Shown in pieces: positions 7,123-54,907 of a DNA stretch of 64,000 nucleotides. Each line of letters opens with the position of its first letter. Position 1 is the first letter of the stretch. The translations under genes and the position numbers were made by a program. A model generated the notes under the pieces. It ran no database searches and was not told the origin of the DNA. It was given only the letters and a program-made list of their open reading frames with translations. The stretch covers positions 38,514-102,513 of the forward strand of contig JAHQWL010000083.1 of NCBI GenBank assembly GCA_029856155.1, given 5' to 3'. Origin of the DNA: Promethearchaeia archaeon (GTDB lineage: Archaea > Asgardarchaeota > Lokiarchaeia > Sigyniarchaeales > SOKP01).

Positions 7123-8130
7123 CTATTCTTTTTTCTCATTCCAACGAGGATAGGTTCTTCTCTCCATGAAAACTTTATTAGTTTTTACGAGTATTCCTGA
7201 TTTAGCTTTATATATTTGAAGTGCATCTTTTAAAGCTGTACCAAACCCTATTAACTCTTTTTTTAAACTCATAAATGCAACTAACATATTATTCTTTATC
7301 CTAGCATCAATATAACATATACCTGCAGAGGCTAGATCTGCTCCATGACATAAAGCATCCACTGCGGTATCTCTAACATAAATCTTAGGTAGATGAGATA
7401 CCATTTTCTCCATTGGGAATACAAATTTCTTCAAATAATAATTGTTTCCCTCTATTTGATAAATTGTAACCGCATCTTTTAAATTTTGTAGCGTTATTAG
7501 ATTATCACTTTCTTTAAAATTACCCACCCTTGTTCTTCTTAACTCAAGCATATGAGCACCAGAACATAAAGCTTCTCCTAAATCAAAACAAAATTTCCTC
7601 ACATAAGTTCCCGCTTCACATCCAAGACGAAATAAGATATGATTATTGCTAACTTCAATAACTTCGCTATAATAAATCTCTCTTACCCGTAATTTTCTCG
7701 CAACAGATGATTTTAATGGAGGTCTTTGATAGATTTTTCCTGTAAATAATTCAAATATTTTCTCTATCTTTTTTCTTTTTTCTGGGGTGTGTAAATACAT
7801 CACTCCTATATATTCCTTCCCGGCGTTTAATAATGCTGATAATACTCTTGTTGCTTTTCCAAGAGCACATGGTAATATACCGGTAACTTTTGGATCAAGA
7901 GTTCCTCCATGACCCGCATTTGAAATACCCAAAATTTTACGAACCCATGATACTACTTCATGGCTAGTTGGACCACTTGGTTTATCAAGATTTATTACTC
8001 CATATTGTAAAAGTAATTCAATACTTCTTTTTTCAGGCTCAATGCCATAATTTGGGTCAGAATTATCTTGAGATTTTACTAAAAGTTGCTCAGGTTCATC
8101 AGAGGGTAATTTAAATTCTAAATTTTCCAT
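7123..8130 (-). CDS. cbf5: H/ACA RNA-guided pseudouridine synthase Cbf5
   Basis: INLDKPSGPTSHEV, GHGGTLDPKVTG, GTYVRK; C-terminal PUA domain. Confidence 0.97.
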   Translation of the reverse strand: MENLEFKLPSDEPEQLLVKSQDNSDPNYGIEPEKRSIELLLQYGVINLDKPSGPTSHEVVSWVRKILGISNAGHGGTLDPKVTGILPCALGKATRVLSALLNAGKEYIGVMYLHTPEKRKKIEKIFELFTGKIYQRPPLKSSVARKLRVREIYYSEVIEVSNNHILFRLGCEAGTYVRKFCFDLGEALCSGAHMLELRRTRVGNFKESDNLITLQNLKDAVTIYQIEGNNYYLKKFVFPMEKMVSHLPKIYVRDTAVDALCHGADLASAGICYIDARIKNNMLVAFMSLKKELIGFGTALKDALQIYKAKSGILVKTNKVFMERRTYPRWNEKKE

Positions 8131-8246: not shown

Positions 8247-8350
8247 CGGGCTATAGGGGAATTGAACCCCCGACCTTTCTTTTTAAGGGAGATATACCCT
8301 TAAATGTCAGGTTAAAAGCCTGCTGCGCTACCTGCCTGCGCCAATAGCCC
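8247..8350 (-). tRNA. tRNA-Lys(UUU) with a ~30-nt intron at about position 44/45 (about 8276-8305)
   Basis: Acceptor GGGCTAT/ATAGCCC; anticodon arm GCAGG CTTTTAA CCTG; T arm GGGGG TTCAATT CCCCT; insert carries hairpin TTTAAGGG/CCCTTAAA. Confidence 0.92.
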
Positions 8351-9567: not shown

Positions 9568-9669
9568 GCCTCTGTGGCTTAGCGGGTATAGCAACATTAA
9601 ATGTCAGTTTGAAGAAAATGCTAAAGATTCGTAATCTGTAGGTCGGGGGTTCAATTCCCCCCAGAGGCT
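9568..9669 (+). tRNA. tRNA-Thr(CGU) with a 29-nt intron at 28/29 (9596-9624)
   Basis: Acceptor GCCTCTG/CAGAGGC; spliced anticodon arm ACAGA TTCGTAA TCTGT; BHB central helix AGCA/TGCT. Confidence 0.92.
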
Positions 9670-22379: not shown

Positions 22380-23852
22380 TTATCCCTTTACTACACCTAT
22401 TGGTACTAATCTAACTATTTTTTCAACGATTCCCAAATCATGACTAACTTGAACAACTTGATCTATGTCTTTATATGCACCAGGAGCCTCTTCAGCAATT
22501 ACTTTCATCGAAGCAGCTCGCACTAAAATACCTTGTTTATTTAGATTATCTTTAACTCGCTCTCCCCAGTATCTCTTAATAGCTTTAGATCTTGACATAA
22601 TTCTCCCAGAACCATGTGCAGTAGAACCAAATGATAGATCCATGGCTTTCTTTTTACCCACACAGAGATAGGATGCAGAACCCATAGTTCCTGGGATTAA
22701 TACGGGTTGTCCAATAGATTTATAATCTGAAGGTAGATCAGGATGTTGTGGGGGAAAAGCTCTTGTTGCTCCTTTTCTATGAATATTCAATTTCATTTTT
22801 TTACCATCAATTTCATGCTCTTCTATTTTCAAAATATTGTGGCAGACTCCATATATTAAATGGAAATCTAAATCGTCTATATCCTTTTTAAAGGTATTTT
22901 GAAAGGATTCTCTTAACCAGTGTGTAATCAATTGACGATTTGTGAACCCAAAATTAGCTGCACAAGCCATCTGTTTTAAATAATTCTGAGCTTCAGGTTT
23001 ATCTGCTGGAACACATGCTAATTCTCTATCAGGAACTTTTATATTATATTTTTTCATTGCTTGTTCGATACTACGCAAAGAATCTGTACATACTTGATGG
23101 CCAAGAGCTCTACTTCCTGTATGGACCATTACAGTGACTTGATTCTTTTCATGTATTCCCAAAGTTTTCGCGATATTCTTATTATAAATCTCATCAACTT
23201 TTTGTATTTCAAGAAAATGATTTCCACTCCCTAAAGAACCAAGCTGTTTAATTGCTCGTTGTTTTGCTTTTTGGGAAACTAAGCTAGCATCTGCATCCTT
23301 TAAACATCCATTCTCTTCCAAATGTTTATAGTCTTCTGCATCAGCATATCCATTCTCTAATGCCCAATTCACACCGTTTTTTAATACATTATCTAAATCT
23401 GAATAGCTTATGTTTAATTTACCTTTTGATCCTAAACCGGAAGGGATATTTTTGAAGATTGAATCTAATAGATTTGGAAGTAAACCCTTAATGTCTTTAA
23501 AAAATAAATTAGTTCTCAGTAATCTCACACCACAATTAATATCATAGCCAACACCACCGGGAGAAATCATCCCATCTTCCGCATCAGTTCCAGCAACGCC
23601 CCCTATACAAAATCCATAACCTTGATGGGCATCCGAGAGAGCAATGGCATGTTTCTGTATCCCAGGTAAGCATGCAACATTGCAAATTTGATCTAAGGTA
23701 CGATCTAACTTAATTTTTTCTAAAATATAATCATTCGCATAAATTTTAACCGGAACTCTCATCTGAAACTTCTCAATATTACCTTTAATCCTTACCATTA
23801 AAGTCTTTGGAGGAATCTCGAAGATGTTGTCATCAATTTTATTAACATTCAT
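22380..23852 (-). CDS. rtcB: RNA ligase RtcB (tRNA-splicing ligase)
   Basis: DAHQGYGF, GVGYDINCG, GSGNHF, HRKGATRA, HGSGR, EEAPGAYK. Confidence 0.98.
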   Translation of the reverse strand: MNVNKIDDNIFEIPPKTLMVRIKGNIEKFQMRVPVKIYANDYILEKIKLDRTLDQICNVACLPGIQKHAIALSDAHQGYGFCIGGVAGTDAEDGMISPGGVGYDINCGVRLLRTNLFFKDIKGLLPNLLDSIFKNIPSGLGSKGKLNISYSDLDNVLKNGVNWALENGYADAEDYKHLEENGCLKDADASLVSQKAKQRAIKQLGSLGSGNHFLEIQKVDEIYNKNIAKTLGIHEKNQVTVMVHTGSRALGHQVCTDSLRSIEQAMKKYNIKVPDRELACVPADKPEAQNYLKQMACAANFGFTNRQLITHWLRESFQNTFKKDIDDLDFHLIYGVCHNILKIEEHEIDGKKMKLNIHRKGATRAFPPQHPDLPSDYKSIGQPVLIPGTMGSASYLCVGKKKAMDLSFGSTAHGSGRIMSRSKAIKRYWGERVKDNLNKQGILVRAASMKVIAEEAPGAYKDIDQVVQVSHDLGIVEKIVRLVPIGVVKG

Positions 23853-34584: not shown

Positions 34585-36327
34585 TTGGATCCCTTAAAAG
34601 AAATATCCGCAACAATTATTATGGTTAGGGTAGCTCATGATCTGCAAAGACAAATCCTTGAAATGACTTCCTTATTGAGAGTCATAAATAATTATTATAA
34701 AAAGAAAGAAGTTCTCCAAATTCAAATAGAACCACTAATCTTAGAAAAAATCGAAGAAGAATTAAAATCACTTAAAAATACTAAAGATAACGTCCAAAGT
34801 ATTCCAACTGTTTTTAACACTCAAAATAACAAATTTTTGAATGAAAACAATTTATTTAAATTTCCAGGTAGCATTTTACTATTCGAAGCGTGGATGCATT
34901 TAGGTACTCATGCACTTTTTCCTCGTATTGTACTTCATCTTCAGTTTCCTGGATTTTTAGAAAAGGAAAAGACCAGGAATATCTTTCAATTTATTTTTTC
35001 AACCTCACGAGGTTTTGGGTTTCCTATTTACTTTGGTCCAGAATTCTATCATTATAGGTTTAAACTTGCAAAATTATTTGATCCGTTGTTAAAATGGACA
35101 TATACAGTGTCCCACAGAGCAAATCAAGCTATTGTTTTGGGAAATAAACGCTTAAAATCTAAAAGGCATCATCCAGGAGAATTTGAATCTGTCATTATAT
35201 CAGAATATAATGATAATGTGTATAAAGGAATCGATACCATTTTACATGGATATTTTAAAAATGAAGCAAAAACTTTAGGTAATTTTTTTTCATTAGAAGA
35301 AGTTCTTCAAAATTGTACTTTTTATTATTCAATTGGTGATCATGCCATGAGAATTGAAAAAAATAGTATGAATATGATCTTGACCCTCCCCTTAATAACC
35401 TCTCATGATATCGTTAAAAATTATGATATTGATTTCTATTCTTACGTTAAAGAGCTACTGAATGTAAATAAACTATTAATCCGAAAAATTAATTTCTACA
35501 GAGAAAAAAGAAATAATCTCATAAGCAAATTAAATAAAATCGACAAATTAAAATTTAGATTTGAAAGATCTAAGCACTCTGCGAAAGAATTTGCGAGGAT
35601 GTCCCAAAAACTCTCAAAGAAATATCCAATAATCGATAAATATGATCATTACAGGACATTATTGGGAAAACTTAGAGAACTATTATTTACAACCCCAATT
35701 TATATGCATTCAACCTATAATCCTAAGGAAGGAGGAAGATTTTTACAAATATTAAATATAGAAAGAGAAAGTATCGATAATTATGAACAAGAGTCGGTGA
35801 ATTCATTTTTATTATCATTTATTAATTATTATGAACAGAAACATAATTTTAATTTTGAAGAAGAAGAAGTTGTGCATAAATTAGAGAAATTAAGAGATAA
35901 AATGGCAAAAATGTGGTTATTCTTTAAAGAAAGACAGTATAAATTTGCATTGGAAAAATTAAAAGAAATAGCAATACTATCCTTAGATGACAAGAATTAT
36001 GAGAAAACAATCAATTTATTTTTAGATACCCTTCTTCCAATTATAGCTTTATATGAATTTTTTAATAAACCACTATTTGAATCAGTCTATCCTGAGTCTG
36101 TTCCTCAGACTAAAAGACCTGGAGCCTATATTGCCCGATTTTTAGCTTCAAAATATAATCCTATAGGCACAAAATTAATGAAACTATTTAACAGATTAGC
36201 TTTTCAAAATTGGAGTTATCTCATATTAAAAAAAGGAATGAATCATAATGAATTTTTCAATTATATATTAAAATTACCAATATGGAATCATATACCTGAA
36301 AAATTGAAAAAAAGAATATTGGAATGA
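34585..36327 (+). CDS. Hypothetical protein
   Basis: 580-aa ORF; no motif recognised. Confidence 0.7.
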   Translation: MDPLKEISATIIMVRVAHDLQRQILEMTSLLRVINNYYKKKEVLQIQIEPLILEKIEEELKSLKNTKDNVQSIPTVFNTQNNKFLNENNLFKFPGSILLFEAWMHLGTHALFPRIVLHLQFPGFLEKEKTRNIFQFIFSTSRGFGFPIYFGPEFYHYRFKLAKLFDPLLKWTYTVSHRANQAIVLGNKRLKSKRHHPGEFESVIISEYNDNVYKGIDTILHGYFKNEAKTLGNFFSLEEVLQNCTFYYSIGDHAMRIEKNSMNMILTLPLITSHDIVKNYDIDFYSYVKELLNVNKLLIRKINFYREKRNNLISKLNKIDKLKFRFERSKHSAKEFARMSQKLSKKYPIIDKYDHYRTLLGKLRELLFTTPIYMHSTYNPKEGGRFLQILNIERESIDNYEQESVNSFLLSFINYYEQKHNFNFEEEEVVHKLEKLRDKMAKMWLFFKERQYKFALEKLKEIAILSLDDKNYEKTINLFLDTLLPIIALYEFFNKPLFESVYPESVPQTKRPGAYIARFLASKYNPIGTKLMKLFNRLAFQNWSYLILKKGMNHNEFFNYILKLPIWNHIPEKLKKRILE

Positions 36328-36352
36328 AATCGTTATAATTATTATTAGAATT

Positions 36353-36962
36353 TTAAAACTCTAAAAACCCCGGATCATCAAAAATATCTTCAATTTTTCT
36401 TTCTTTCTTTATCTTGGAATCTCTTTCCGCGAATAATGACTCCTCCTCAGTCCGAACCCCTCGATCTAATTCTTCAGTATCAAGTTTCAATAATGCATCT
36501 TTTTCAAGTCGTTTAAATTCTTCAGCTTTCGTTTTCCAGTCATTTATTTCATCCAAATTAACATCTTCTTCATCTAGTAATATCGCGGCTTTTACTTTGC
36601 AAAGATCTGACAAAATAGAGTAGGCTAATGCTAATTCTCCCCATTCTTGGTCTACTTTCAATCGCTGTATTCTTCTTTCTAATCTTTGTAGTTCTTGATC
36701 GGCATAATAGATATCAATAAAATCTCCAAAAGCATCAACGGGTTCAGAAATCGAATTAACTAATACTTCTTTTGTTAACTCACAATTTCCACATTTCACA
36801 GTTGCAAAAGCACCCTTCTTTTTAATATCAGTTACTTTGACGCTTTTTTCACCGCATTCGAGGAAAGATCGGAATCCGATCTACTCATTCTGGGCAGGTG
36901 AAAATTTTCGGTACTCTTTTAACCCTTTTTGGTGATACTTGTTTACGTTTTCTTCTTCCCAT
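36353..36962 (-). CDS. elf1: Transcription elongation factor Elf1 with C-terminal extension; two exons (36888-36962, 36353-36856), 192 aa spliced
   Basis: Exon 1 MGRRKRKQVSPKRVKRVPKIFTCPE; exon 2 CGEKSV...VKCGNC...SEPVDAFGDFID; together they give the Elf1 signature. Confidence 0.9.
36857..36887 (-). other. Putative 31-nt BHB intron in elf1
   Basis: Insert TGAGTAGATCGGATTCCGATCTTTCCTCGAA; removal restores CPECG; folds as a BHB. Confidence 0.85.
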
Positions 36963-37155
36963 AAATATCACTACGTAAATATGTTATAATTCTATCTAAC
37001 ATCAATTAGATTAAAGAAAAGGAAAGCTAAAATATTTTTGCTTTTATGTGAAAATGTCTAAAGGAATTTAGTAAAATTTTTTAGGAATGTTTAATTATTC
37101 CAATTACTCTTTTTGACTGAAAAGTTTTAGTAATTTTAATAATATTGAGTGGATT

Positions 37156-38262
37156 TTGGGTATGGAGCATACTAATTTAACATTGGAAGATGATAAAAAC
37201 CTTATTGACAACATTCTTGATAATGTAGATATGAGATACATAATTCTTTTCCTATATATTATTAGGAATGATTTATTTAAAGATTTAACCGACAATAATC
37301 TCATAGAATCCTTTGAGAGAGTATTAGTTTTAGATGATATTTATAAGAGCAACGTCGTGAATTTTTGGGATGAGGAATTTATTGAAATTTATATAGATTT
37401 AGGCCTAATTAAAAATATTCGAAGTTTGAGAGAGTTTAAACAAAAAGATGATGATTTTATTATTAAGTTAGGTGAGGAAACAATAACTATTGAAAATGAC
37501 ACAATCTCGGTTCCTGAGGACACTCTTTTTTTAATAGTAAATAAAAAATTCAAATTTTTAACCAGAAGGAATTTTAACTTGGCTCTTACGAGGTTAAAAG
37601 GAGTTCGGTGTGAGAAAAGTAATCTTATTCATTCATTAATTAAAGGGATTGATGAACATGATTATACATTATCAGATGATTTTTATTATATTTTGGATCA
37701 ATATGGGAACATATATCAAGCAATTAAAATTGAACTTACCATTGAAGGATTTTATCAAAGGTTTAAAGAAATTAAAGAAAAAATTACTGGATATATTAAA
37801 ATTGTTGAACCTGTATTAAATTTGAAGCTAGTTATAAAAAAAATTAATAACGCTATAGAAGAAAATAAAGATGTTATACAATATCTTAAAGATGAAAAAG
37901 TAGAACTCTCAGAAAAATTCAATTTTGAAAAAATTGATAAAAGTAATGACATATTTACACAATGGAATTCACAACTGTCGTCAATGTTAAAGTGCAGATT
38001 CCAAATTGAACAAATTAATAATAAACTAATAGATTTAAAAAAATATTATTCTGGTAAAAACAAAAACTATAGTTATTTAGAATTTATCGAAAAAGTCTCT
38101 TTTAATGAAGATGGATTAGTAAACCGTATTCAAAATTCCTTGATTGACTTGCGAAAAGAGTTAGTAAAAATTAATGAGCAAATTTCTAAAATAACAGAAA
38201 AAGAACTAAAATTATTAAATTTAGATTATGAAAGATTAGTATTAATGAGTAGTGATGAGTAA
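37156..38262 (+). CDS. Hypothetical wHTH plus helical-bundle protein (operon gene 1)
   Basis: wHTH-like segment LTRRNFNLALTRL...YTLSDDF, then a coiled coil. Confidence 0.65.
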   Translation: MGMEHTNLTLEDDKNLIDNILDNVDMRYIILFLYIIRNDLFKDLTDNNLIESFERVLVLDDIYKSNVVNFWDEEFIEIYIDLGLIKNIRSLREFKQKDDDFIIKLGEETITIENDTISVPEDTLFLIVNKKFKFLTRRNFNLALTRLKGVRCEKSNLIHSLIKGIDEHDYTLSDDFYYILDQYGNIYQAIKIELTIEGFYQRFKEIKEKITGYIKIVEPVLNLKLVIKKINNAIEENKDVIQYLKDEKVELSEKFNFEKIDKSNDIFTQWNSQLSSMLKCRFQIEQINNKLIDLKKYYSGKNKNYSYLEFIEKVSFNEDGLVNRIQNSLIDLRKELVKINEQISKITEKELKLLNLDYERLVLMSSDE

Positions 38263-54201: not shown

Positions 54202-54907
54202 TAATAAAAGAGAACTAATATGTGGAATAGATGAGGCTGGTAGAAATTAATTCAATTCGAATTAAGTGTTAATAGGCTCTGTCTTAGGTCCCATGGTTTT
54301 ATGTGGAATTTGTTTCGATGTTTCAAAAATTAATTATATATCTGAAATTGGAGTAAAGGACTCAAAGAAATTATCTTCTAAAAAGAGGAGTGAATTAACT
54401 GAACTCTTGAAAAAAAGCTGTTATTCTCATAAAATCGTTGTAGTTGGACCTCAGGAGATTGATGAGAGAGAAATTAAAAAAGTTACATTGAATCGACTTG
54501 AAGAATTAAAAATGGCAGAAATTATAAACGAATTAAAACCTGATATTATATACATAGATGCTGCTGATGTTAATGAAGAAAGATTTGGAAAGTCTATTAA
54601 AAATTTATTAGATTACAAACCTAAAGAAATTATCTCTAAACATAAAGCAGATGATCTATTTCCCATAGTATCAGCGGGATCTATTGTAGCAAAAAATAAA
54701 AGAGATACCTTAATTCTTGAAACCCATAAAGAATATGGGGATTTTGGTTCTGGTTATCCTTCTGATATCAAAACAATAAATTTTCTAAGAGAATATGTTA
54801 AGAAATATAAAAAACCACCAAAAATTGCTAGGAAATCTTGGGATACTACCAAAAAAATTATAGAAGAAGAGGTATCAACTAAGAAAATAACTGAATTCCT
54901 CAATTAA
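54161..54907 (+). CDS. rnhB: Ribonuclease HII; two exons (about 54161-54243, 54274-54907)
   Basis: Exon 1 ...ICGIDEAGR joined to exon 2 GSVLGPMV gives the DEAGRG motif; DSKKL, HKAD, GSGYPSD. Start may be 54161, 54164 or 54179. Confidence 0.9.
54244..54273 (+). other. Putative 30-nt BHB intron in rnhB
   Basis: Insert AAATTAATTCAATTCGAATTAAGTGTTAAT contains an in-frame TAA and hairpin TTAATTC/GAATTAA; BHB geometry. Confidence 0.85.

What the first reader, a model, noticed from the sequence alone, without database searches (positions are those of the whole stretch)
36857..36887. 31-nt BHB intron splitting the first CxxC of Elf1
Minus-strand RNA: ...CACCUGC-CCAG-AA|U-GAG(U)AGAUCGG AUU CCGAUCU UUC-CUCG-AA|U-GCGGUG.... 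The central helix CCAG/CUCG has 3 of 4 pairs, both bulges are AAU, the intron stem is long, and the exon helix is CUGC/GCGG. The unspliced mRNA stops at UGA after CPE and would also be frameshifted. Splicing gives FTCPECGEKSV, the Elf1 zinc ribbon.
Basis: partly seen in the sequence, partly recalled or inferred. Interest (0 to 1): 0.9.

Follow-up and report, generated by a model that had tools for sequence, protein, structure and literature searches.

The report
tRNA-type mini-intron in Asgard elf1
The only gene for transcription elongation factor Elf1 in this Loki-type Asgard archaeon is interrupted by a 31-base insert shaped like a tRNA intron. Comparative evidence, and transcripts from a very close relative, indicate that the tRNA-splicing enzymes cut it out of the mRNA, which has been published for only one other archaeal coding sequence (cbf5).

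Summary
On the minus strand, exon 1 is 36962-36888, a 31-nt insert is 36887-36857, and exon 2 is 36856-36353. The two exons match contiguous parts of the Elf1 Pfam model.

The insert folds as a canonical helix-bulge-helix-bulge-helix motif. Cutting after the second base of each AAU bulge restores CPE|CGEK, exactly as in intronless orthologues.

- **Distribution:** 32 of 92 distinct orthologous genes carry a 28-32 nt insert at this site.
- **Structure:** it covaries, with 85% of cells paired against 33-44% in slid controls and 11 of 18 pairs changed on both sides.
- **Selection:** interrupted genes are under the same purifying selection as intact ones (dN/dS 0.07 vs 0.06).
- **Copy number:** elf1 is single-copy here.
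- **Enzymes:** two EndA paralogues and RtcB are present.
- **RNA:** two metatranscriptome assemblies hold the joined form. The longer contig nests inside the all-intron clade that contains this genome. This is suggestive, not proof, because intronless alleles also exist as DNA.

A ribosomal hop is rejected, because take-off and landing codons differ in most variants. This scan has flagged the same elf1 intron in other genomes before. I also confirmed similar inserts in rnhB, a dodecin gene and a Roadblock gene of this genome. Verdict: a new member of a known kind.

The parts
36888..36962 (-). elf1 exon 1: 25 codons, a basic N-terminal tail and the first half of the first zinc knuckle (..FTCPE)
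   Evidence: Pfam PF05129 profile positions 1-26.
36857..36887 (-). 31-nt BHB intron. It begins with an in-frame UGA and its length is not a multiple of 3.
   Evidence: It is skipped in RNA contigs X18 and X19.
36353..36856 (-). elf1 exon 2: 167 codons plus stop. It holds the second half of the first knuckle (CGEK), the second CxxC (CGNC), and a long coiled/acidic C-terminal extension.
   Evidence: Pfam PF05129 profile positions 28-78, E 1.2e-9.
36894..36902 (-). 5' strand of the outer exon-exon helix. CUGC is next to the central helix, and the helix extends as UUCACC(U)GC.
   Evidence: MFE. RNAalifold predicts this helix on its own. 96% of cells paired across 31 sequences.
36890..36893 (-). 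5' strand of the 4-bp central helix (CCAG, exon codons Pro-Glu)
   Evidence: It covaries with the 3' end of the intron.
36887..36889 (-). 5' bulge AAU. The predicted cut lies between 36888 and 36887.
   Evidence: Geometry. The junction is confirmed by intronless orthologues.
36863..36886 (-). Intron hairpin (inner helix h'): GAG, a bulged U, a 7-bp stem and loop AUU
   Evidence: 9 of 10 pairs show changes on both sides.
36859..36862 (-). 3' strand of the central helix (CUCG, intron)
36856..36858 (-). 3' bulge AAU. The predicted cut lies between 36857 and 36856.
36847..36855 (-). 3' strand of the outer exon-exon helix (GCGG, extended as GCGGUGAA)
22383..23690 (-). RtcB RNA ligase gene, the enzyme expected to join the exons. 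It lies in the same window.
   Evidence: PF01139, E 4.9e-171, at G000:C83:60896-62203. Window coordinates were derived from the offset.

Best explanation
The 31 nt at 36887-36857 are an archaeal bulge-helix-bulge (BHB) intron inside the coding sequence of elf1.

**Proposed mechanism.**
1. In the pre-mRNA the two exons pair with each other in an outer helix.
2. The last four exon-1 bases pair with the last four paired intron bases to form the central 4-bp helix.
3. The intron forms its own hairpin.
4. This presents two 3-nt bulges on opposite strands to the tRNA-splicing endonuclease EndA. This genome has two paralogues, which fits the (alpha-beta)2 form.
5. EndA cuts after the second base of each bulge.
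6. RtcB joins the exons, giving an mRNA for a 192-aa Elf1 with an intact C-x2-C...C-x2-C zinc ribbon. The intron is released, probably as a small circle.

**Evolution.** The intron is old within this Loki-type family and has been lost precisely many times.

**What is shown and what is inferred.**
- Shown: the geometry, covariation, purifying selection, single gene copy, presence of the enzymes, and a joined form in RNA-derived contigs of very close relatives.
- Inferred: that EndA and RtcB are the acting enzymes, the circular fate of the intron, and splicing in this very organism.
For: 1. The Pfam Elf1 model matches exon 1 at positions 1-26 and exon 2 at 28-78, so only the insert separates them.
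2. The geometry is a canonical hBHBh', with cuts that restore CPE|CGEK. That junction is identical to the one in 60 intronless orthologous genes.
3. 32 of 92 distinct orthologous genes carry a 28-32 nt insert at the same site, giving 31 distinct junction sequences.
4. On their alignment (A1) the BHB shows 85.2% paired cells against 33-44% for slid partners. 11 of 18 pairs change on both sides, and 0 of 500 shuffles reach the observed covariation score.
5. The exon strand of the central helix (CCAG, CCTG, CCGG, CCAA, CCAC) changes together with the intron strand.
6. The exon-exon helix is fully paired in 26 of 30 intron alleles but in only 30 of 61 intronless alleles. Synonymous codon choice is skewed to ACC-TGC|TGC-GGT.
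7. Median dN/dS is 0.07 for intron-intron pairs and 0.06 for intronless pairs.
8. elf1 is the only PF05129 match in a genome that is 97% complete.
9. Two EndA paralogues are present, as is RtcB. Asgard EndA is reported as the broad-specificity (alpha-beta)2 type with the L1 loop (PMC5829648). A tRNA in this window has an intron at a non-canonical site.
10. Metatranscriptome contigs from two studies carry the joined form: X18 (739 nt) and X19 (302 nt). The skip is 31 nt with 5 nt of slack, which is compatible with 36887-36857. No unspliced RNA contig was seen.
11. The X18 contig ends about 27 nt upstream of the ATG and about 130 nt past the stop, like a transcript. It is nearest to genes that hold the intron: 95.4%, 94.8% and 92.2% identity, against 89.9% for the nearest intronless gene. 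It nests inside the all-intron clade of L003, L033 and L034 with 100/99 support.
Against: - No DNA and RNA from one and the same organism could be compared. Intronless alleles exist as DNA in the same kind of sample (X1 record 2, 91% identical, joined form).
- Elsewhere on the tree, intron presence differs between sister genes only 5-7% apart. The RNA contigs could therefore come from an unsampled intronless strain.
- The central helix has a C.C mismatch in this genome (3 of 4 pairs).
- RNAalifold recovers only the outer helix and the core of the hairpin, not the central helix.
Confidence: 0.88

Rival explanations
1. Translational bypass. The ribosome takes off at GAA (36890-36888) before the UGA, slides over the hairpin, lands on the second GAA (36859-36857) and resumes at UGC, as in phage T4 gene 60. 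The protein would be the same without any RNA splicing.
For: In this genome the take-off and landing codons match (GAA/GAA). A stop codon follows the take-off site and a hairpin lies in the gap.
Against: The matched codons are not conserved. In L050, L055, L064, L078-L099 and L112 the codon before the insert and the last three insert bases differ (for example GAA/AAA, GAA/GAT, AAT/GAT, CAA/GAA). BHB pairing is kept in all of them. What covaries is the helix between the exon and the 3' end of the intron, which a hop does not need. RNA-derived contigs lack the 31 nt.
Confidence: 0.03
2. The insert is never removed. The gene is a pseudogene, or it makes only a truncated product from the internal GTG at 36799.
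For: The unspliced frame stops after 25 codons. An internal GTG ORF of 148 aa exists.
Against: This is the only elf1 in the genome. Interrupted genes show dN/dS of 0.07, including exon 1. There are no other lesions in 31 distinct interrupted alleles. The GTG product would lack the first zinc knuckle. The insert structure is conserved with compensatory changes.
Confidence: 0.03
3. EndA cuts the BHB, but mainly as a switch or decay signal. Splicing is inefficient or conditional, so the intron throttles Elf1 output rather than being a neutral passenger.
For: Yeast TSEN cleaves mRNAs for decay, and the HVO_1309 intron affects expression (PMC10485636, PMC7714728). The intron lies early in the gene. 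The central helix is imperfect in this genome.
Against: Only joined forms, and no unspliced form, appear in the two RNA assemblies. Frequent precise loss without visible consequence argues against an essential regulatory role. Nothing here measures efficiency.
Confidence: 0.05
4. Assembly or binning artefact: the 31 nt are not in the real genome.
For: The genome is a MAG with 5.7% contamination.
Against: The same or related inserts sit at the same site in 31 distinct sequences from many independent studies and assemblers. The insert is also in an independent Logan contig of the probable source run.
Confidence: 0.01

Closest known systems
BHB intron in the cbf5 pre-mRNA of Crenarchaeota (Desulfurococcales and Sulfolobales; Watanabe 2002; Yoshinari 2006; Yokobori 2009, PMC2738675)
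   Same: - A short intron inside a protein-coding sequence that folds as a somewhat relaxed BHB.
- The host has a hetero-oligomeric (alpha-beta)2-type EndA.
- The distribution is patchy, implying gain and loss among close relatives.
   Different: - A different gene (elf1, not cbf5; the cbf5 of this genome is uninterrupted).
- A different phylum (Promethearchaeota/Asgard).
- The intron splits a zinc knuckle 25 codons into the gene.
- Splicing has been shown by experiment for cbf5, but not here.
BHB intron in the 5' UTR of Haloferax volcanii HVO_1309 (PMC7714728; PMC10485636)
   Same: An mRNA substrate of the tRNA-splicing endonuclease, with the spliced form seen in RNA-seq.
   Different: It lies in the untranslated leader, so the reading frame does not depend on it. 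The host enzyme is an alpha2-type homodimer (PMC10485636).
tRNA introns at canonical and non-canonical positions in Asgard archaea (PMC11291895; bioRxiv 10.64898/2026.10.13.758758)
   Same: The same motif, the same size range (about 30 nt) and presumably the same enzymes. This window holds a tRNA with such an intron in the variable region.
   Different: The host RNA is a messenger. The exon arms of the helices are also codons, so structure and coding constrain the same bases.
Translational bypass of the 50-nt gap in phage T4 gene 60 (from my own knowledge)
   Same: A stop codon after the take-off codon, a matching landing codon, and a hairpin in the gap, as seen in this genome.
   Different: Matching codons are absent in most orthologous variants. 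The RNA contigs lack the gap.

Membership tests
Archaeal BHB intron (EndA substrate) | Two 3-nt bulges on opposite strands, separated by a 4-bp helix | tested here: met
   The bulges are AAU and AAU. The central helix CCAG/CUCG has 3 of 4 pairs here and 4 of 4 in L079, L080, L087, L092 and L094.
Archaeal BHB intron (EndA substrate) | Flanking helices on both sides (outer exon-exon helix h, inner intron helix h') | tested here: met
   The outer helix is 4 of 4 and extendable to about 8 bp. The inner helix is 3 bp, a bulged U, then 7 bp.
Archaeal BHB intron (EndA substrate) | Cuts at the symmetric bulge positions give a functional product | tested here: met
   The junction CPE|CGEK equals that of the intronless orthologues and restores the Pfam model without a gap.
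Archaeal BHB intron (EndA substrate) | Structure maintained by compensatory change | tested here: met
   85% of cells are paired, against 33-44% in slid controls. 11 of 18 pairs change on both sides, and 0 of 500 shuffles reach the score.
Archaeal BHB intron (EndA substrate) | Host encodes the splicing endonuclease and the RtcB ligase | tested here: met
   PF01974 matches twice. PF01139 matches once.
Archaeal BHB intron (EndA substrate) | Spliced RNA exists while the DNA holds the intron | tested here: inconclusive
   The joined form is in two metatranscriptome assemblies, from relatives 93-96% identical that nest in an all-intron clade. DNA of the same organisms is not available, and intronless alleles exist.
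Archaeal BHB intron (EndA substrate) | Cleavage by EndA in vitro and ligation by RtcB | not testable with these tools
   This needs recombinant enzymes and a transcript.
Elf1 (Pfam PF05129, Zn_ribbon_Elf1) | Basic N-terminus followed by a C-x2-C ... C-x2-C zinc ribbon that matches the family model | tested here: met
   Exon 2 scores 38.5 bits (cut-off 29.8). Exon 1 adds profile positions 1-26. The cysteines are CPEC and CGNC after joining.
Programmed translational bypass (gene 60 type) | Matching take-off and landing codons, conserved among homologues | tested here: not met
   The codons match in this genome but differ in most of the 31 variants.

The most novel reading that the evidence does not exclude
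The elf1 intron is one visible member of a whole layer of about 30-nt BHB mini-introns in protein-coding genes of Loki-type Asgard archaea.

- In this genome alone I confirmed similar inserts in rnhB, a dodecin gene and a Roadblock/LC7 gene.
- uL11 looks interrupted too.
- Other first-stage notes name cdhA, AMP phosphorylase and more.

The closest prokaryotic relatives of eukaryotes would then routinely express interrupted protein genes through enzymatic, spliceosome-free mRNA splicing, with frequent precise intron loss.
Probability: 0.55. Interest if true: 0.85.

Novelty: new member of a known kind. Interest (0 to 1): 0.7.

Why it matters
In the literature I could search, protein-coding BHB introns rest on one coding-sequence case (cbf5 in Crenarchaeota) and one 5'-UTR case (Haloferax HVO_1309).

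- **An unusually rich comparative record.** There are 31 distinct intron sequences, many precise losses, and exon codons that co-evolve with the intron. It becomes a natural system for studying how coding and RNA-structure constraints share the same bases, and how introns are lost precisely in archaea.
- **A practical annotation problem.** Gene callers will report a truncated or missing Elf1, and likewise RNase HII and others, in these genomes. That distorts inventories of eukaryote-like proteins.

Tried and rejected
- **Homology-free screens for further mRNA introns.** BHB geometry plus open-frame logic gave 219 candidates in the window alone. Two genome-wide versions added a hairpin-energy filter and an internal control comparing frame-compatible with frame-incompatible junctions. 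They gave about 1:2, meaning no detectable excess, and recovered only 1-2 of the known cases. The screens have no power, so no genome-wide count is claimed.
- **Search for other copies of the intron.** BLAST of the elf1 and rnhB introns against the whole genome found none. They are not a repeated mobile element here.
- **tRNA finding.** ARAGORN found no tRNA in the window. Rfam found two intron-bearing ones.
- **RNAalifold.** It predicts only the outer helix and the hairpin core, not the central helix.
- **RNA run X20.** Its contig stops at 36831, before the intron, and says nothing.
- **Promoter region.** RNA contigs do not cover 36998-37099. I take this only as a weak hint of a transcript start near 36989.
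- **Rejected readings.** A split protein translated as two pieces is rejected, because exon 2 has no start codon before the second half of the knuckle. A group I or group II intron is rejected on size.
- **Literature.** Searches for Elf1 with bulge-helix-bulge, Elf1 with archaea, intron and zinc ribbon, and Asgard with BHB and mRNA found no report. The held library lacks many subscription journals.

Full report
**Observation**

The window is part of contig C83 of a 4.1-Mb, 97%-complete MAG with about 29% G+C. Record titles of its closest relatives call them Promethearchaeota, that is, Loki-type Asgard archaea.

On the minus strand an ATG at 36962 opens a 25-codon frame, MGRRKRKQVSPKRVKRVPKIFTCPE. 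It runs into TGA at 36887-36885. A 167-codon frame beginning CGEKSVKV starts 31 nt later, at 36856.

Pfam's Elf1 model (PF05129) matches the first piece at profile positions 1-26 and the second at 28-78. The two pieces are therefore one gene, split inside the first C-x2-C knuckle.

**Structure**

- outer helix CUGC/GCGG, extendable to UUCACC(U)GC/GCGGUGAA
- central helix CCAG/CUCG with one C.C mismatch
- two AAU bulges on opposite strands
- an inner hairpin of 3 bp, a bulged U, 7 bp and loop AUU

The 58-nt stretch folds at -19.7 kcal/mol with z = -3.4. Cutting after the second base of each bulge removes exactly 36887-36857 and joins ...CCA GAA to UGC GGU.

A motif of this quality occurs at 3.1e-4 of arbitrary site-length pairs in this genome. 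The boundaries are set independently by homology, so chance is about 2e-3 for this sequence alone.

**Comparative evidence**

I collected 110 orthologous loci, with some duplicates between the two sources, from 40 related genomes and from the species-level genome collection.
- They give 92 distinct coding sequences. Of these, 60 read CPx|CG without interruption and 32 carry a 28-32 nt insert at precisely this site.
- The inserts give 31 distinct junction sequences. These align into 62 columns (A1).
- On my BHB structure, 85.2% of cells form standard pairs, against 33-44% when partners are slid by 1-3 columns.
- 11 of 18 pairs show changes on both sides.
- None of 500 shuffles reaches the observed covariation score, percentage paired, or counts of double changes.

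Most telling is the central helix. Its 5' strand consists of exon codons (CCAG, CCTG, CCGG, CCGA, CCAA, CCAC). It changes together with its intron partner (CTCG, CAGA, CCTG, ACGG, TTGG, GAGG). Two of its pairs each show three standard pair types.

RNAalifold, run without my structure, recovers the exon-exon helix and the hairpin core.

The exon-exon helix is fully paired in 26 of 30 intron alleles but in only 30 of 61 intronless ones. Synonymous codons are skewed towards ACC-TGC|TGC-GGT. These counts are not phylogenetically independent.

**The gene is functional**
- Median dN/dS is 0.07 among interrupted genes and 0.06 among uninterrupted ones.
- The interrupted gene is the only PF05129 match in the genome.

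The insert must therefore be dealt with at the RNA or translation level.

**Enzymes**
- The genome has two EndA paralogues of 198 and 202 aa. Each has the N-terminal and catalytic domains.
- The first is most like the chains of PDB entries 3p1z, 3ajv and 2cv8. From memory I take these to be crenarchaeal enzymes.
- The second is most like 1a79.
- Two paralogues fit the report that Asgard archaea have the broad-specificity (alpha-beta)2 type with the L1 loop (PMC5829648).
- RtcB lies in this very window at 22383-23690.
- A tRNA at 8247-8350 has an intron of about 31 nt in the variable region, a non-canonical site.

**RNA evidence**

Three metatranscriptome runs and the probable source DNA run were laid on 36250-37250 at 90% likeness.
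- The DNA contig of X1 (2214 nt, 2 differences) contains the insert.
- RNA contigs of two different studies skip 31 nt at 36854/36886 with 5 nt of slack, which includes the predicted 36856/36888. These are X18 (739 nt, 92.7% identical) and X19 (302 nt, 95.7% identical).
- No RNA contig retains the insert.
- The X18 contig ends about 27 nt upstream of the ATG and about 130 nt past the stop, as a transcript would.

There is a caveat. X1 also holds a short, low-depth DNA contig, 91% identical, with the joined form. Intronless alleles therefore exist as DNA.

I rebuilt the fully listed part of the X18 contig (36356-36661) to place it.
- It is 95.4%, 94.8% and 92.2% identical to L034, L033 and this genome, which all hold the intron.
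- It is 89.9% identical to the nearest intronless gene.
- In a careful tree it nests inside the clade of those three with 100/99 support.

Bracketing therefore says that its gene holds the intron while its RNA lacks it. This is the first RNA-level hint for this intron. It is not proof, because elsewhere on the tree sister genes 5-7% apart differ in intron state.

**History**
- On a tree of the 92 distinct coding sequences the intron needs 16 changes, and at least 8 are forced by well-supported branches.
- It is absent from the 9 outgroup genes of the neighbouring family.
- Several intron-internal columns are at least 90% conserved across both main intron groups.

One old gain followed by many precise losses is the most economical reading. 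The mechanism of loss is inference only: recombination with intronless alleles, or with reverse-transcribed spliced mRNA.

**Rivals**
- **Ribosomal hop (T4 gene 60 type).** This is tempting here, because GAA precedes the insert and GAA ends it. Those codons differ in most variants, while the BHB is kept.
- **Pseudogene.** Excluded by the selection and single-copy results.
- **Artefact.** Excluded by the many independent assemblies.
- **Regulatory role.** A role for inefficient splicing cannot be judged here.

**What is known**

The held literature gives cbf5 in Crenarchaeota as the one coding-sequence case and HVO_1309 as a 5'-UTR case. A 2023 review states that splicing is known for at least two archaeal genes (PMC2738675, PMC7714728, PMC10485636).

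Recent Asgard papers treat tRNA introns only. No paper in the library combines Elf1 with bulge-helix-bulge. The cbf5 gene of this genome is uninterrupted.

Earlier notes of this scan describe the same elf1 intron in other genomes, none with RNA data.

**Context in this genome**

Following leads from those notes, I checked other genes.
- **rnhB (window 54221-54907, + strand).** It carries a 30-nt insert at 54244-54273 with two TAA codons between GIDEAGR and GSVLGPMV. The insert is present in all 23 readable same-genus genomes sampled and absent from six genomes of other families. The central helix is mostly 4 of 4 and varies among the genomes.
- **Dodecin gene (G000:C71:27608-27638).** It carries a 31-nt insert with a 4 of 4 central helix. 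Removal restores a sensible junction.
- **Roadblock/LC7 gene (G000:C72:106002-106031).** It carries a 30-nt insert with a 4 of 4 central helix. Removal restores a sensible junction.
- **uL11.** It lacks its first 16 profile positions in the main frame, and pieces are visible in other frames. I did not resolve it.

My own genome-wide screens had no power, so I give no total.

**Verdict**

This is a real BHB intron in elf1 with confidence of about 0.88. It is a new member of a known kind. It is notable for its host lineage, its comparative record, and the likelihood that it is one of several such introns in the genome.

Noticed in passing
window 54244-54273 (+), inside rnhB at 54221-54907: A 30-nt insert with two in-frame TAA codons splits the RNase HII motif GIDEAGR|GSVLGPMV. 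It fits a BHB one base to the left of the codon boundary (cut after GGUAG). The central helix is 4 of 4 in most genomes and varies among them (GUUA, ACCA and others). It is present in all 23 readable same-genus genomes sampled and absent from 6 genomes of other families.
   Followed up: yes
G000:C71:27608-27638 (+): A dodecin gene is split after MTVYKSIQLVG by a 31-nt insert. The central helix is UUGG/CCAA and the bulges are AAA and AAC. Removal gives ..LVGTSDKNW...
   Followed up: partly
G000:C72:106002-106031 (+): A Roadblock/LC7 gene holds an in-frame 30-nt insert with TAA TAA. The central helix is ACGU/GCGU (4 of 4) and the inner helix is 6 of 6. Removal gives ..DETRIAAMTAALL...
   Followed up: partly
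G000:C44:135950-136050 (+): The main frame of the ribosomal protein uL11 gene starts only at Pfam position 17. Upstream pieces (..LVTGGSA, ASGGPPI, GPSVGPTG..) lie in shifting frames separated by AT-rich stretches of about 36 nt. This suggests two mini-introns. The boundaries are not resolved.
   Followed up: partly
window 8247-8350 (-) and 9568-9669 (+): Two tRNA genes of about 103 nt were found by Rfam but missed by ARAGORN. The first has an intron of about 31 nt in the variable region (a non-canonical site). The second has about 40 nt in the anticodon arm.
   Followed up: partly
window 36353-36700 (-): This Elf1 has a C-terminal extension of about 115 aa beyond the zinc ribbon. It is coiled-coil-like and acidic, ending ..DDPGFLEF. 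It is conserved across the family's orthologues. Eukaryotic Elf1 also has an acidic tail (from my own knowledge). I did not examine this further.
   Followed up: no
window about 7600-7941 (-): The cbf5 (TruB_N) gene is one uninterrupted 343-aa frame. It is the gene that carries the classic crenarchaeal mRNA intron.
   Followed up: yes
L052 and L055 (both from MAG 'bin60', JAGXNO01): One MAG holds two elf1 copies on different contigs, one intronless and one with the intron. This is probably two strains binned together.
   Followed up: no
window 34585-36327 (+): A 580-aa ORF converges on elf1. Its stop lies 26 nt from the elf1 stop, and the X18 RNA contig runs about 130 nt into it.
   Followed up: no
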